Below, one piece after another: positions 535 through 47,593 of a DNA stretch of 47,593 bases (position 1 is the first letter of the stretch; every line of letters begins with the position of its first letter). A model generated the notes under the pieces. That model saw nothing but the letters and a program-made list of their open reading frames with translations. It was not told the DNA's origin and did not search any database. This DNA is from Candidatus Kapaibacterium sp. (GTDB lineage Bacteria > Bacteroidota > Ignavibacteria > Kapaibacteriales > UBA4661), in assembly GCA_025363605.1 (NCBI GenBank), contig JANYDO010000359.1, positions 1 to 47,593 of the forward strand, given 5' to 3'. The position numbers and the translations under genes are program-made.

Positions 535-562
535 GAATTAATAAAAAAGTATCAAAATTTTG

Positions 563-632
563 GGCTTCGGCAGCACAGACATTCTTGTCTGTGAGATTTA
601 GCGCTCTGTGCTTACCCTGTGCTACTGAAGCC
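563..632. repeat. Intergenic inverted repeat with a REP-like hairpin
   Basis: GGCTTCGGCAGCACAG (563-578) pairs with CTGTGCTACTGAAGCC (617-632) with 2 mismatches; internal hairpin CACAGACA-TTCT-TGTCTGTG. Related sequence at 3975-4019. Confidence 0.6.
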
Positions 633-658
633 AGCAAAATACTTCATCTGTATCAAGG

Positions 659-785
659 TTAGGACTTTTGCAAATCGCATCTGTCATACCGACGTAGGTC
701 GGTATCCATGACGTGTACACGTTGCCGATAGATTCCGACCTGCGTCGGAATGACAGCAAACATGGACAGTTTGCGAAAATCCTAA
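659..785. mobile_element. MITE-like shell (TAGGACTTTYGCAAA ends) enclosing a REP-like doublet
   Basis: TTAGGACTTTTGCAAA (659-674) and TTTGCGAAAATCCTAA (770-785) are inverted with 2 mismatches. The same end family occurs at 47145-47258. Confidence 0.65.
681..756. repeat. REP-like doublet, GTCATnCCGAC family (copy 1)
   Basis: Left arm CTGTCATACCGACGTAGGTCGGTATCCA (681-708); inverted right arm TAGATTCCGACCTGCGTCGGAATGACAG (729-756). Each arm is itself a hairpin. Confidence 0.9.
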
Positions 786-833
786 AGGTCTATTTTGTTG
801 AACAACTTGTTGCACAACGACACGAGGAAAACG

Positions 834-39706: not shown

Positions 39707-39876
39707 GGTTTTAATTGGATGTAGTTAGAAATCTCTCTTACAAATGCGGGAAACAAGACGCTGTCATACCGACGTAGGTCGGTATCTATATCGAAAGGAC
39801 ACGGCACAACACGCTTCCAATGGATGCCGACCTGCGTCGGCATGACGAGATTTTCCAACTAAAATCATTTAGAACC
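39707..39876. mobile_element. Degenerate outer inverted-repeat shell enclosing REP doublet copy 2
   Basis: GGTTTTAATTGGATGTAGTTAGAAATCTC (39707-39735) imperfectly matches the reverse complement of 39847-39876 (GGTTCTAAATGATTTTAGTTGGAAAATCTC). Confidence 0.5.
39761..39846. repeat. REP-like doublet, GTCATnCCGAC family (copy 2)
   Basis: CTGTCATACCGACGTAGGTCGGTATCTA (39761-39788) and inverted TGGATGCCGACCTGCGTCGGCATGAC (39821-39846). Confidence 0.9.
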
Positions 39877-42179: not shown

Positions 42180-42634
42180 CTTGTCATGCCGACGCAGGTC
42201 GGCATCCATATCGCCTACGAGCGTTCATCCCAAAATCAATATAATCATTCCCATCAACCAATGAAAACCTACCACATCTACATTCTCGCTAGCGCAAAAT
42301 ACGGTACGCTGTACATTGGCTCGACGAGCAATCTTGTCAAAAGGATGTATGAACATAGCAATTCGCTTATTGAGGGTTTTACGAAAAAGTATCGTGTTCA
42401 CAACCTTGTTTGGTATGAATCCACAAACGATGCTACAACTATGGTTACAAGAGAGCGTCAGATGAAAGAGTGGAAGCGCGATTGGAAAATAAACCGTATC
42501 AATGAACATAACCCGGAATGGCAAAATTTGTATGAAAATGGCGAAATTTCGCCCTTACAGATTCCATAATCAAAGGCAGACATCGAGAAACGGATTCTTG
42601 CGATATGGATGCCGACCTACGTCGGTATGACAAG
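42180..42634. mobile_element. GIY-YIG nuclease cassette bounded by 35-bp inverted hairpin repeats
   Basis: CTTGTCATGCCGACGCAGGTCGGCATCCATATCGC (42180-42214) and GCGATATGGATGCCGACCTACGTCGGTATGACAAG (42600-42634), 33/35 identical. Sits between the ABC permease and ATPase genes. Confidence 0.8.
42261..42569 (+). CDS. Stand-alone GIY-YIG nuclease (102 aa)
   Basis: HIYILAS...TLYIGSTSNLVKRMYEH...FTKKY...LVWYE...RERQMKEWKRDWKINRINEHNPEW; catalytic Tyr, Arg and Glu appear present. Confidence 0.92.
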   Translation: MKTYHIYILASAKYGTLYIGSTSNLVKRMYEHSNSLIEGFTKKYRVHNLVWYESTNDATTMVTRERQMKEWKRDWKINRINEHNPEWQNLYENGEISPLQIP

Positions 42635-42702
42635 CGACCCTCATGTCTGGATATACCACAGCATGGCAAAAATAATCAACTATACCATTCGAGAAATATA
42701 TT

Positions 42703-46421: not shown

Positions 46422-47132
46422 ATGAATGACGCAACATACATCGGCAACGAACTTGAATTTTTTGAAAAAGCAGTCAACTGGAAACGTTACTACGCCTCAT
46501 TCCTGAAGCCGTACCTGAAAGGGTGTGTTGTGGAAGTCGGTGCGGGACTTGGCGGTACAACATCGTCCCTTTGCGACGGCTCGCAAGAAGAATGGCTGTG
46601 TCTGGAACCGGACGGAGCGCTCGCAGCACACGTCAGCGAGAAAATCGCTGCCAAGACATTGCCCGCTTGCTGCCGTGTTCATGTGGGATTTTTGAGTGAG
46701 TTGCCCAAAGACCACAAGTACGATGTGGCGATTTACATTGACGTGTTGGAACATATCGAACACGATAGCGCCCAGCTTGAAGAAGTAACGCGCTATCTCA
46801 AGCCCGGCGGACACGTGATTGTTCTCTCGCCCGCGTACCAGTGGCTCTTCAGCCCGTTTGATGCAGCCATTGGGCATTATCGGCGTTATACGCGCCCGAT
46901 GCTTTTGGCAGCCGCGCCGCCTACACTCAAGCGCGTCAAAGCGTTTTACCTTGATTCGCTTGGCTTGTGTACATCGGCAGCAAATAAACTTTTTCTGAAA
47001 CAATCGCAGCCCACGCCGGAACAAATCAAGCTCTGGGATAGCGTCATTGTGCCTGTTTCCAAAGTGACCGATGCGCTTATCGGCTATAATGCAGGGCGCT
47101 CCGTGATTGCCATTTGGCAGTATCAAGGGTAA
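46422..47132 (+). CDS. Class I SAM-dependent methyltransferase
   Basis: VEVGAGLG, DVLEHIEHD, LKPGG and GHYRRY. Confidence 0.9.
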   Translation: MNDATYIGNELEFFEKAVNWKRYYASFLKPYLKGCVVEVGAGLGGTTSSLCDGSQEEWLCLEPDGALAAHVSEKIAAKTLPACCRVHVGFLSELPKDHKYDVAIYIDVLEHIEHDSAQLEEVTRYLKPGGHVIVLSPAYQWLFSPFDAAIGHYRRYTRPMLLAAAPPTLKRVKAFYLDSLGLCTSAANKLFLKQSQPTPEQIKLWDSVIVPVSKVTDALIGYNAGRSVIAIWQYQG

Positions 47133-47144
47133 ATCTTTGACCAT

Positions 47145-47258
47145 TAGGACTTTCGCAAACAAGCTGGAGTGCGAACGGGAGTTCGCATAACTACTGCCTT
47201 CGCCTTGTCAACCGAACTTCCGTTCGGACTCCAAAAGAGTATCTTTGCGAAAGTCCTA
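47145..47258. mobile_element. MITE-like shell (perfect 15-bp IR) enclosing a GGAGTGCGAAC hairpin doublet
   Basis: TAGGACTTTCGCAAA (47145-47159) and TTTGCGAAAGTCCTA (47244-47258). Inner arms TGGAGTGCGAACGGGAGTTCG (47165-47185) and CGAACTTCCGTTCGGACTCCA (47213-47233). Confidence 0.75.
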
Positions 47259-47292
47259 GCCATGTACTTTTTTTGAACATTTTTGAATTTTC

Positions 47293-47593
47293 ATGTTTCT
47301 TAGCAAACCTTACTTCCCTGCTCCGACAGAAAACCGTATGGGCGATGACGGTGATTTACTGACAGCGCGTCGAATCTTTTACGACGAAAAGCCGCGTAAT
47401 CTCTGGGCGCTCATGCGCAACCGCTTTTCGTGGATGAATCGGTATATTGATCCCGAAAAACACGTCGGCGTTGAGGTGGGATGCGGTATTGGCGTTGTGA
47501 AAGAGTTTGTGCGGGCAAAGTCCATTTTGCTGACGGACTATGCCGAAAGTCCGTGGCTGGATGTGAAAATGGTAGATGCCATGAAAACGCCCT
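47293..47593 (+). CDS. Class I SAM-dependent methyltransferase, N-terminal part (runs off the window)
   Basis: Own translation MFLSKPYFPAP...VGVEVGCGIG...LLTDY...VDAMKTP, open to the window end. Confidence 0.75.
   Translation, partial: MFLSKPYFPAPTENRMGDDGDLLTARRIFYDEKPRNLWALMRNRFSWMNRYIDPEKHVGVEVGCGIGVVKEFVRAKSILLTDYAESPWLDVKMVDAMKTP

What the first reader, a model, noticed from the sequence alone, without database searches (positions are those of the whole stretch)
47145..47258. One MITE-like shell carries two unrelated hairpin cargos
Seen: outer ends TAGGACTTTCGCAAA...TTTGCGAAAGTCCTA enclose a GGAGTGCGAAC-GGGA-GTTCG doublet here. Near-identical ends at 659-674 and 770-785 enclose the GTCATnCCGAC doublet instead. 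Conversely, the GTCAT doublet sits in a different shell at 39707-39876 and in none at 42180. Inference: outer transposon-end shells and inner REP doublets are combinable modules. Either REPs target MITE interiors, or MITEs capture and ferry REPs, giving a nested two-tier mobilome.
Basis: partly seen in the sequence, partly recalled or inferred. Interest (0 to 1): 0.7.

Follow-up and report, generated by a model that had tools for sequence, protein, structure and literature searches.

The report
Miniature transposons carrying nuclease-linked hairpin pairs
The 114-base element is one copy of a miniature transposon whose fixed ends enclose interchangeable pairs of DNA hairpins, so these hairpin repeats spread by riding inside another mobile element.

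Summary
The "shell" TAGGACTTTCGCAAA...TTTGCGAAAGTCCTA is a true miniature transposon (MITE) of a Candidatus Kapaibacterium genome. There are 53 inverted pairs in the genome, and 35 of 52 scorable pairs have perfect 5-bp target duplications. The orthologous site in two sister species is empty.

Its autonomous partner is an IS701-family insertion sequence found in sister genomes, with the same 15-bp ends and a 5-bp duplication. It was not found in this assembly.

The interiors fall into four classes here and at least five across the genus. In 51 of 53 pairs the interior is an inverted doublet of a hairpin family that also exists outside the shell. Each family is tied to a hairpin-specific nuclease gene:
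- The GGAGTGCGAAC family flanks a REP-associated tyrosine transposase (RAYT).
- The CAGACAAGAGTGTCTG family flanks a RAYT in a sister genome.
- The GTCAT family is an Ssn-related motif that brackets a GIY-YIG gene inside this window.

A second, unrelated MITE (ISL3-derived, 8-bp duplication; window 39707-39876) carries the GTCAT doublet too.

So shells and hairpin doublets are combinable modules, and the composites transpose as units. How the cargo got in is unresolved. The components are known; I found no description of the combination, hence new variant of a known kind.

The parts
47145..47258 (.). Shell A MITE (114 bp) with a GGAGTGCGAAC-type (RAYT-linked REP) doublet. This is the element of the finding.
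   Evidence: 93-98% identical to six other copies in the genome and 94% to one in sister genome G007. Absent from the orthologous spacer in G004 and G007. Folds as single-stranded DNA into one long hairpin, -33.1 kcal/mol, z -7.56.
47145..47159 (+). Left terminal inverted repeat TAGGACTTTCGCAAA
   Evidence: The same 15-mer ends IS701-family copies in G001 and G007.
47244..47258 (-). Right terminal inverted repeat (exact reverse complement of the left one)
47140..47144 (.). Left copy of the 5-bp target duplication (ACCAT). The right copy, GCCAT at 47259-47263, has 1 mismatch.
47166..47187 (+). REP arm 1, GGAGTGCGAAC-GGGA-GTTCGCA
   Evidence: The same family flanks the RAYT gene on contig C153.
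47213..47232 (-). REP arm 2, inverted (GGAGTCCGAAC-GGAA-GTTCG on the minus strand)
47233..47243 (.). Long T-rich linker. Read from the right end it is GATACTCTTTTG. Its pattern is shared by all cargo classes on one side only.
660..784 (.). Shell A MITE (125 bp) with a GTCAT (Ssn-related motif) doublet. The 5-bp duplication AAGGT lies at 655-659 and 785-789.
   Evidence: fold -33.1 kcal/mol, z -7.60. No shell A was seen in the homologous spacers of the five sister genomes read: G004, G005, G006, G007, G008.
39707..39876 (.). Shell B MITE (170 bp, ISL3-derived ends) with a GTCAT doublet
   Evidence: The parent IS with the same ends is at G000:C230:1-1175.
42181..42215 (+). Ssn-related motif, left arm of the pair that brackets the GIY-YIG gene
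42261..42569 (+). Single-copy 102-aa GIY-YIG nuclease gene, read here as Ssn-type. It is the likely cognate nuclease of the GTCAT hairpin family.
   Evidence: Compared with Chenal 2025.
42601..42635 (-). Ssn-related motif, right arm of the pair
570..597 (-). Single CAGACAAGAATGTCTG-type (GTAG-tagged) REP next to the 660-784 MITE

Best explanation
Window 47145-47258 is a composite non-autonomous transposon.

The outer part (the "shell") is the pair of 15-bp terminal inverted repeats of an IS701-family insertion sequence, plus a short asymmetric linker. A transposase supplied in trans cuts at these ends and inserts the whole unit with a 5-bp staggered cut. That explains the 5-bp duplications and the empty sites in relatives.

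The inner part (the "cargo") is an inverted doublet of a hairpin repeat of REPIN type. It belongs to a family that lives in the genome independently of the shell and is recognised by its own hairpin-specific single-strand nuclease:
- a REP-associated tyrosine transposase (RAYT) for the GGAGTGCGAAC and CAGACAAGAGTGTCTG hairpins;
- an Ssn-type GIY-YIG nuclease for the GTCAT hairpins.

Different cargoes were joined to the same shell several times. The GTCAT cargo was also joined to an unrelated ISL3-derived shell. Each composite then multiplied by DDE transposition, so in this genus hairpin repeats are dispersed largely as passengers of MITEs.

Shown: the ends, the duplications, the empty site, the partner IS in congeners, the nuclease-gene linkage of the cargo families, and the multiple shell-by-cargo combinations.

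Inferred: that the IS701 transposase is the enzyme that moves the MITEs, that the nucleases act on these hairpins, and how cargo and shell were first joined.
For: (1) It is a MITE.
- 53 inverted pairs in the genome. 5-bp direct repeats are perfect in 35 of 52 pairs and have 1 mismatch in 8 more. At shifted offsets, 0 of 52 are perfect.
- 5-bp duplications are also seen on copies in other Kapaibacterium assemblies.
- The orthologous spacers of G004 and G007 lack the window element.
- A G007 copy has an empty site in G000.

(2) The partner IS.
- G001:C442 holds a 1111-bp element with perfect 15-bp ends TAGGACTTACGAAAA. That is the variant shell also borne by CAAGG-class MITEs in G000.
- It has a 5-bp duplication AAATT and one ORF scoring 363 bits on NF049921 (IS701 family, cut-off 250).
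- A 51%-identical paralogue in G001 sits next to exact or 1-mismatch shell A ends.
- In G007, 8 contig boundaries of the 12 I read carry exact shell A ends followed by that paralogue's subterminal sequence. One end type encodes its C-terminus.

(3) The cargo families are independent and nuclease-linked.
- The contig C153 ORF scores 95 bits on NF047646 (REP-associated tyrosine transposase, cut-off 80). GTGCGAAC...GTTCGCACTCC hairpins flank it on both sides.
- G008 has an orthologous RAYT with two covarying hairpins downstream of the gene, and a second RAYT flanked by CAGACA hairpins.
- Naked GGAGTGCG doublets with variable spacers exist: 25 of 42 hits lie away from any shell.
- The GTCAT pair brackets a GIY-YIG gene here and in G005, G008 and G004. 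In G004 the gene sits in another locus, and the hairpin differs in its inner stem while matching the published NTS consensus at 27 of 28 positions, by my comparison with the consensus quoted.
- Across the class, 16 of 30 homologue loci have such flanking inverted repeats, against 0 of 115 shifted controls.

(4) Combinations.
- Shell A carries 4 classes here. Five assemblies of other species show other dominant cargoes.
- Shell B has a 25-bp consensus end. Its 8-bp duplications have at most 1 mismatch in 6 of 12 pairs, against 0 of 12 at shifted offsets. Its parent IS at C230 scores 221.6 bits on the ISL3 model (cut-off 180). It carries GTCAT.
- Of 146 GTCAT hits, 66 lie by shell A ends and 49 by shell B ends.

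(5) The shell is restricted to this genus and family, while the GTCAT/GIY-YIG pairing is class-wide. So the cargo family is older than the shell.
- Shell: 8 of 8 congeners and 2 of 2 genomes of other genera of the family have matches. The order-level genomes have 0 to 2 matches each, at the level of the reversed-pattern control.
- GIY-YIG homologues: 94 of 201 class genomes.
Against: - No autonomous IS with shell A ends was found in the G000 assembly itself. It has 567 contigs of 2 kb or more. The enzyme acting here is therefore inferred from congeners.
- In G007 only the IS ends are assembled, not the body (one search found no hit there).
- The one complete copy (G001:C442) has ends that differ at 2 of 15 positions from the window's shell.
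- 9 of 52 copies show poor duplications (2 to 5 mismatches).
- No site was found where one and the same insertion carries different cargo, and no clearly empty ancestral shell was found. The 51-bp C536 pair and the solo end at C444 are ambiguous. The act of joining is not observed.
- Nuclease activity on these hairpins is untested.
- No RAYT was found here for the CAGACA family (only in G008), and none for CAAGGGG hairpins. The related CAAGGGAGC palindrome lies beside the Y1 domain in contig C239.
Confidence: 0.78

Rival explanations
1. Nuclease-driven loading. The hairpin doublets were inserted into, or exchanged within, a pre-existing short shell by their own single-strand nucleases (RAYT or Ssn), which target the single-stranded or hairpin-prone centre of the MITE. 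It is a sub-model of the best explanation that specifies the route.
For: - All four cargo classes keep the same asymmetric plan: TIR, then a long linker of the form AnnnCnnTTTTG whose TTTTG(C) can pair with the inner CAAAA of the TIR, then the doublet, then a short linker, then the TIR. This suggests one backbone that received different cargoes.
- The spacer between the arms is a repeated landing place for other small elements. In G006 L072 another small TIR element with a hairpin is nested there. L077 and G005 L054 carry other inserts. L062 and L070 are interrupted there after the first arm.
- The whole unit folds as one long single-strand hairpin.
Against: - The linkers are similar in pattern, not identical, and the short linker differs between classes.
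- No common target motif lies next to the doublet boundaries.
- Neither RAYT-mediated REPIN insertion nor any strand-transfer activity of Ssn has been shown experimentally. The Ssn paper reports cleavage only (sections 6, 7 and 10 and passages of sections 8, 9 and 12 read).
- No empty backbone was found.
Confidence: 0.35
2. Capture by the transposon. MITE copies acquired nearby hairpin doublets through abortive gap repair or template switching at hairpins, or through recombination between elements. Composites that folded well then amplified.
For: - Chimeras exist. C232:3414 joins a shell A left half to a shell C right half inside the shared CAGACA doublet. C157:16284-16404 has one variant end and one standard end. 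C47:4437-4516 is a palindromised half-element.
- In G005 the GIY-YIG locus is surrounded by arrays of GTCAT doublets with decayed shell A-like ends. That is a possible birthplace.
Against: - Recombination through a shared hairpin makes chimeric shells. It does not put a new cargo between two identical ends.
- The compact, equal-length architecture (113-127 bp) in every class is hard to get from random capture.
Confidence: 0.3
3. There are no independent modules. The hairpins are simply the interiors of ordinary MITE subfamilies, and hairpin copies outside shells are debris of decayed MITEs.
For: - For the GTCAT family nearly all copies are in or beside shells: 115 of 146, with 13 more at contig edges.
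- Of the 18 hits with no shell end within 130 bp, my reading of the printed flanks assigns 10 to diverged shell B. C23 is a decayed shell A.
Against: - GGAGTGCG and CAGACA hairpins flank RAYT genes, and GTCAT hairpins flank a GIY-YIG gene, with protein-hairpin covariation.
- The GTCAT/GIY-YIG pairing is found across the class and matches a motif described in Neisseria, while the shell is limited to one family.
- 25 of 42 GGAGTGCG hits have unrelated flanks.
Confidence: 0.07
4. It is a host regulatory element (terminator, attenuator or mRNA-stabilising hairpin) kept by selection, not a mobile element.
For: - It lies in a 160-bp spacer between two co-directional ORFs: an ORF ends at 47132 and the next starts at 47293.
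- Very stable fold, z -7.6.
Against: - There is no T-run after the stem.
- The site is empty in the orthologous spacers of G004 and G007.
- Target duplications at 52 scattered sites.
- Copy number varies from 2 to 100 ends among congeners.
- A secondary effect on neighbouring transcripts is not excluded.
Confidence: 0.05

Closest known systems
Bacterial MITEs derived from DDE insertion sequences (RUP, Correia/NEMIS, Nezha, MITEAba12 and others, as listed in Di Nocera 2013, PMC3733652, Background passage)
   Same: Short (about 110-125 bp), non-coding, with terminal inverted repeats identical to those of a full-length IS. Fixed-length target duplication, many copies, folds into a hairpin, moved in trans.
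   Different: The core is not IS-derived filler. It is a doublet of hairpin repeats that belong to separate, nuclease-linked repeat families. One set of ends carries at least five such cores, and one core occurs in MITEs of two unrelated IS families (IS701 and ISL3).
REPINs and RAYTs (Bertels and Rainey 2011, PMC3116915, abstract seen in listing; Nunvar 2010, recalled)
   Same: [quoted passage not shown] The cognate single-copy RAYT gene is flanked by the same REPs (C153 here).
   Different: Classical REPINs have no DDE-type terminal repeats and, as I recall, make no target duplication. Here the REPIN-like doublet sits inside TIRs with 5-bp duplications and multiplies as part of that unit. The GGAGTGCG family lacks the GTAG tag.
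Ssn GIY-YIG single-strand nucleases with NTS / Ssn-related motifs (Chenal et al. 2025, PMC11893778; abstract, sections 6, 7 and 10 and passages of 8, 9 and 12 read)
   Same: A small single-domain GIY-YIG gene flanked on both sides by oriented hairpins of the CGTCATTCCCGCG...GGGAATC type. The motif is present in many copies in the genome. Protein and motif co-vary.
   Different: In this genome the motif has a different inner stem (CCGAC/GTCGG) and starts TGTC. At least 115 of 146 copies lie within 130 bp of a MITE end. The word MITE does not occur in that paper, and it leaves open how the repeats spread.
BIMEs of E. coli and the composite REP-plus-stem-loop repeats of Pseudomonas (Di Nocera 2013, PMC3733652, section 16 passage)
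   Same: Mosaic units in which REPs are combined with other short motifs in several arrangements.
   Different: Those mosaics have no transposon ends, no target duplication and no identified DDE partner.
IS elements that target REPs
   Same: An interplay between DDE transposons and REP hairpins.
   Different: There the IS inserts into a REP, so the REP halves lie outside the IS ends. Here the hairpins lie inside the ends and travel with them.

Membership tests
MITE (non-autonomous DDE transposon) | Terminal inverted repeats | tested here: met
   15-bp exact inverted ends at 47145-47159 and 47244-47258. 53 pairs genome-wide.
MITE (non-autonomous DDE transposon) | Target-site duplication of fixed length | tested here: met
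   5 bp: 35 of 52 perfect and 8 with 1 mismatch at offset 0; 0 of 52 at offsets +-1 to 3. This copy: ACCAT/GCCAT.
MITE (non-autonomous DDE transposon) | Too short to encode a transposase | tested here: met
   114 bp, with hairpin arms throughout.
MITE (non-autonomous DDE transposon) | Full-length IS with the same ends | tested here: met
   Met in congeners. G001:C442 is a complete 1111-bp IS with variant ends and a 5-bp duplication. G001:C129/C130 and 8 G007 contig boundaries have exact or 1-mismatch ends. Not found in the G000 assembly.
MITE (non-autonomous DDE transposon) | Presence/absence polymorphism (empty site) | tested here: met
   The orthologous spacers of G004:C30 and G007:C51 lack the element. 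A G007:C8 copy is absent from G000 C317.
IS701 family (partner IS) | Transposase matches the curated family model above its cut-off | tested here: met
   NF049921.1 363 bits, cut-off 250, E 1.5e-108. Pfam DDE_Tnp_1 and DDE_5.
REPIN / RAYT system (cargo of the window element) | Short imperfect palindrome repeated many times, occurring as inverted doublets | tested here: met
   42 strict hits (57 with a relaxed loop). Both naked doublets and shell-borne doublets occur.
REPIN / RAYT system (cargo of the window element) | Single-copy RAYT gene flanked by the same REPs | tested here: met
   The C153:43-582 ORF scores 95 bits on NF047646.1 (cut-off 80). REPs at C153:8-27 and 601-620. The G008 orthologue has two covarying REPs downstream of the gene.
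REPIN / RAYT system (cargo of the window element) | GTAG tetranucleotide tag at one end of the REP | tested here: not met
   The GGAGTGCGAAC hairpins carry GGAG/CTCC, not GTAG. The CAGACA family does carry GTAG (GTAGCACAGACACTCTTGTCTG).
REPIN / RAYT system (cargo of the window element) | Mobilisation by the RAYT | not testable with these tools
   Needs enzyme assays.
Ssn nuclease / Ssn-related motif (GTCAT cargo) | Small single-domain GIY-YIG protein | tested here: met
   102 aa, PF01541 52.5 bits over residues 4-78.
Ssn nuclease / Ssn-related motif (GTCAT cargo) | Gene flanked 5' and 3' by the hairpin motif | tested here: met
   Window 42181-42215 and 42601-42635. The same holds in G005, G008 and G004. 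16 of 30 class-wide loci against 0 of 115 controls.
Ssn nuclease / Ssn-related motif (GTCAT cargo) | Motif fits the published NTS/SRM consensus CGTCATTCCCGCGMAVGCGGGAATCYRG | tested here: inconclusive
   The G004 flank TGTCATTCCCGCGCAGGCGGGAATCCAG fits at 27 of 28 positions. The G000 motif keeps GTCAT, the loop and the ATC tail but has the stem CCGAC/GTCGG. The paper's degenerate SRM search pattern was not available to me.
Ssn nuclease / Ssn-related motif (GTCAT cargo) | Membership of CDD family cd10448, and single-strand-specific cleavage next to the motif | not testable with these tools
   No CDD library is held here. Cleavage needs an assay.
ISL3-derived MITE (shell B, window 39707-39876) | Ends shared with a full-length ISL3 element, and 8-bp duplication | tested here: met
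   G000:C230:1-1175 has the same ends and an ORF at 221.6 bits on NF033550 (cut-off 180). 6 of 12 pairs have 8-bp repeats with at most 1 mismatch, against 0 of 12 at shifted offsets. The window copy itself shows no clean duplication.

The most novel reading that the evidence does not exclude
DDE-type MITEs act as a chassis onto which hairpin-specific single-strand nucleases (RAYT, Ssn) load or exchange their hairpin doublets, in a cassette-like way. MITE transposition, not the nucleases themselves, would then be the main way that such repeat families multiply. This would include the NTS/CGTC-type family, which was said in 2013 to lack a transposase. In return, the doublet's foldback could help the MITE by bringing its two ends together.
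Probability: 0.25. Interest if true: 0.85.

Novelty: new variant of a known kind. Interest (0 to 1): 0.62.

Why it matters
How REP-type hairpin repeats spread is still largely inferred. RAYT-driven REPIN movement has not been reconstituted. The 2013 survey stated that CGTC-tagged repeats "apparently lack a dedicated transposase" (PMC3733652 abstract). The 2025 Ssn paper shows cleavage but not spread.

Here a whole genus shows hairpin doublets of three nuclease-linked families multiplying inside transposon ends, with clear target duplications. For the Ssn-related motif, at least 115 of 146 copies lie within 130 bp of the ends of two unrelated MITE families.

That gives a concrete, testable dispersal route: an IS701 or ISL3 transposase acting on a short substrate. 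It is also a natural system for asking whether hairpin nucleases and DDE transposases cooperate or compete on one DNA.

It matters for annotation as well. Counts of "REPs" or "SRMs" in such genomes partly measure MITE activity.

Tried and rejected
- **TA duplication / IS630 origin.** The outer TA looked like a Tc1/IS630-type duplication. The duplication is in fact 5 bp outside the TA. The IS630-like element at C179:1-1180 has other ends, ATACCAATT.
- **IS1380 family as partner.** PF13701 gave 0 of 13 genomes.
- **Full-length IS with shell A ends in G000.** I looked at long-range pairs with up to 3 mismatches, 22 selected unpaired ends, the solo end at C444 and the IS-end sequences of G007. None was found.
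- **Unpaired ends in G005 (12 read) and G006 (4 variant ends plus 20 read).** All are MITEs, decayed, cut by contig ends or interrupted. None is an IS.
- **A GIY-YIG gene flanked by hairpins as a new REP enzyme.** This is a known kind: Ssn/SRM, Chenal 2025. The lead came from earlier notes of this scan, and I checked it by reading the paper.
- **Cargo swap at one orthologous insertion.** I compared 8 G007 elements with G000. Two were informative: one empty site, and one independent insertion in the same spacer with a different duplication. No swap was seen.
- **Common target motif next to the doublets, or identical linkers between classes.** Not found; only a shared pattern.
- **Look-up of the element in earlier notes by sequence.** Nothing.
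- **Literature.** No paper in the held library describes a MITE carrying REPINs or SRMs. Searches: REPIN+MITE+RAYT, REP+MITE+nested, Kapabacteria+transposase, GIY-YIG+REP, GIY-YIG+palindromic repeats. Subscription journals are not covered.
- **5-bp duplication of ISAba11.** This is recalled. The passages found for ISAba11 and IS701 in the review I opened confirm only its family.
Full report
**What is there.**
The element at window 47145-47258 is 114 bp. It has exact 15-bp inverted ends (TAGGACTTTCGCAAA) and an inner inverted pair of GGAGTGCGAAC-type hairpins. A second copy of the same ends at 660-784 encloses a GTCAT-type pair instead.

The window is contig C401 of a 5.30-Mb, 567-contig assembly. 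Titles of matching public assemblies place the genus in Candidatus Kapaibacterium.

**The shell is a real miniature transposon.**
- Genome-wide there are 53 inverted pairs of the ends, 51 to 127 bp long.
- Immediately outside the ends, 35 of 52 scorable pairs have a perfect 5-bp direct repeat and 8 more have one mismatch. With the boundaries shifted by 1 to 3 bases, none of 52 does.
- Of 31 exact pairs in five other assemblies, the flanks I read by eye (about ten loci) show 5-bp duplications, most of them perfect.
- The window copy lies in the spacer between two co-directional ORFs.
- The orthologous spacers of sister genomes G004 and G007, whose flanking genes are 82-93% identical, lack it.
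- Conversely, a G007 copy is missing at the matching place in G000.
- The ends occur in 8 of 8 congeners (2 to 100 ends each) and in 2 of 2 genomes from other genera of the family. The 20 order-level genomes have 0 to 2 matches each, at the level of the reversed-pattern control.

**The partner IS.**
I first rejected two ideas. The duplication is not a TA duplication of IS630 type. No IS1380-family transposase was found in 13 genomes.

A scan for DDE_Tnp_1 genes in the genus, followed by a scan of the fetched loci for shell ends, gave G001:C442. This is a 1111-bp element with:
- perfect 15-bp ends TAGGACTTACGAAAA;
- a 5-bp duplication AAATT;
- one ORF that scores 363 bits on the curated IS701-family model (cut-off 250).

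That end variant is also borne by three paired CAAGG-class MITEs in G000 (C157:16160, C342:1119 and the right end of C47:4437), as well as by the left end of the GTCAT-class copy at C157:16284 and a truncated copy at C442:171.

A 51%-identical paralogue in G001 begins a contig inside the exact shell A end. In another contig it follows a 1-mismatch end by 44 bp.

In G007, the closest relative seen, 8 contig boundaries of the 12 I read carry the exact end followed by one of two constant subterminal sequences. One of these encodes the paralogue's C-terminus. This is the signature of a multi-copy IS that broke the assembly.

No such IS, nor its subterminal sequences, is present in the G000 assembly. 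For this genome the transposase is therefore inferred.

**The cargo.**
The interiors fall into four classes in G000:

| Class | Pairs |
|---|---|
| GTCAT | 31 |
| CAGACAAGAGTGTCTG | 9 |
| GGAGTGCGAAC | 8 |
| CAAGG | 4 |
| no hairpin (51 bp) | 1 |

- Other species carry other dominant classes. There is also a variant of the GGAGTGCG class with a different stem, and a fifth class.
- Each composite subfamily has multiplied. The window copy is 93-98% identical to six others here and 94% to one in G007.

These hairpins are not private to the shell.
- **GGAGTGCGAAC.** These hairpins flank, on both sides, a 179-aa ORF on contig C153 that scores 95 bits on the REP-associated tyrosine transposase model (cut-off 80). 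In the strict census, 25 of 42 hits lie away from any shell, many as naked doublets with variable spacers.
- **The G008 orthologue.** Its RAYT has two hairpins with a covarying stem downstream of the gene. A second G008 RAYT is flanked by CAGACA hairpins.
- **A CAAGGGAGC palindrome.** It lies around a Y1-transposase-like domain embedded in a restriction-modification gene on C239. Earlier notes of this scan treat that locus.

**The GTCAT family.**
- G005 and G008 have the same arrangement at the same locus.
- G004 has a 54%-identical gene in a different locus. It is flanked by a hairpin with the same outer bases and a different inner stem.
- In a class-wide sample, 16 of 30 homologue loci have such flanking inverted repeats, against 0 of 115 shifted controls.

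Notes from this scan pointed me to Chenal et al. 2025. I read its abstract, sections 6, 7 and 10, and passages of sections 8, 9 and 12. The paper describes this architecture as Ssn nucleases with Ssn-related motifs. The G004 hairpin fits the published NTS consensus at 27 of 28 positions. So the GTCAT hairpin is an Ssn-related motif, not a RAYT-type REP, and that side observation is a known kind.

**A second shell.**
Window 39707-39876 belongs to a family of about 170 bp with a 25-bp consensus end.
- Its 8-bp duplications have at most one mismatch in 6 of 12 pairs, against 0 of 12 at shifted offsets.
- Its parent is present in G000 at C230:1-1175, with the same ends and an ISL3-family transposase (221.6 bits, cut-off 180).
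- It carries the GTCAT doublet.
- CAGACA doublets also sit in two further recurrent contexts, shells C and D. I did not characterise these beyond their ends.

**Census.**
Of 146 GTCAT hits:
- 66 lie beside shell A ends and 49 beside shell B ends;
- 13 are at contig edges;
- 18 have no shell end within 130 bp.

By my reading of the printed flanks, 10 of those 18 are diverged shell B, 2 flank the GIY-YIG gene, 2 (C23) are a decayed shell A, 2 (C119) look naked and 2 are doubtful. In this genome the Ssn-related motif is therefore dispersed almost wholly inside MITEs.

**How it works.**
*Shown:* composites of shell plus cargo insert as units with 5-bp (shell A) or 8-bp (shell B) duplications, and full-length IS701 and ISL3 elements share their ends.

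*Inferred:* those transposases act in trans, and RAYT and Ssn recognise the cargo hairpins.

As single-stranded DNA each composite folds into one long hairpin, end pairing with end and arm with arm (-33.1 kcal/mol, z about -7.6). This may favour synapsis of the ends or exposure on the lagging strand. That is speculation.

**How cargo and shell were joined is open.**
For loading into a common backbone:
- All classes keep one long T-rich linker of the form AnnnCnnTTTTG on one side and a short linker on the other.
- The spacer repeatedly receives other small inserts.

For capture or recombination:
- Chimeric elements exist.
- Arrays of doublets with decayed shell ends surround the G005 GIY-YIG gene.

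I found no empty backbone and no site with exchanged cargo.

**Comparison and novelty.**
MITEs, REPIN/RAYT and Ssn/SRM systems are each known, and mosaic REP units (BIMEs, Pseudomonas composites) are known. I found no description of DDE-type MITEs whose cores are doublets of nuclease-linked hairpin repeats, in several shell-by-cargo combinations. The word MITE does not occur in the Ssn paper. The held library lacks most subscription journals. I therefore rate this a new variant of a known kind, of moderate to high interest.

Noticed in passing
window 42181-42635: A 102-aa GIY-YIG gene bracketed by an inverted pair of GTCAT hairpins sits between a FtsX/LolE-like permease gene and an ABC ATPase gene. 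G005 and G008 have the same synteny. G004 has a 54%-identical copy elsewhere with a covarying hairpin. It fits the Ssn/SRM systems of Chenal 2025.
   Followed up: yes
G000 contig C230:1-1175 (not in the window): Full-length ISL3-family IS whose 25-bp ends are those of the about 170-bp shell B MITEs, including window 39707-39876.
   Followed up: yes
G000 contig C239:9447-12635 (L009): A Y1-transposase-like domain and CAAGGGAGCATGCTCCCTTG palindromes lie in frame inside a type IIG restriction-methylase gene. Already treated by earlier notes of this scan.
   Followed up: partly
G000 contigs such as C31:7470, C66:8143, C516:6296 (shell C) and C372:3543, C425:2167 (shell D): CAGACA-type REP doublets sit in two more recurrent contexts. 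Shell C, about 130 bp (TAAGGTATTGAAC...GTCCAAATGCTTA), has 79 of 196 hits beside it and no obvious duplication. Shell D has about 20-bp inverted ends (TCAATAGTCTGGACATTTTC). Their mobilising enzymes were not sought.
   Followed up: partly
L072 (G006:C125:24200-26910), reverse strand as oriented, positions about 110-210: A further small element with its own inverted ends (TACCGTTTTGA...TCGAAACGGTA) and a single hairpin is nested in the spacer of a shell A MITE.
   Followed up: no
G000 C232:3414 and C157:16160-16404: Chimeric elements. At C232, a shell A left half is joined to a shell C right half within the shared REP doublet. At C157, two MITEs abut, and the second has one variant end and one standard end with the duplication TCCTA taken from the first one's end.
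   Followed up: partly
L104 (G007:C33) and L109 (G006:C68), the spacer homologous to window 540-800: The same spacer in G007 and G006 holds a different long palindromic repeat (GTTAAGTTTTGG...CCAAAACTTA), and in G004 it holds an extra ORF. This spacer is a hotspot for small insertions.
   Followed up: no
shell A elements, the inner side of one end (e.g. window 47233-47243): In most subfamilies the long linker ends in TTTTG(C/G), which can pair with the inner CAAAA of the adjacent terminal repeat. This makes a mini-hairpin at one end only. Its meaning is unknown.
   Followed up: partly
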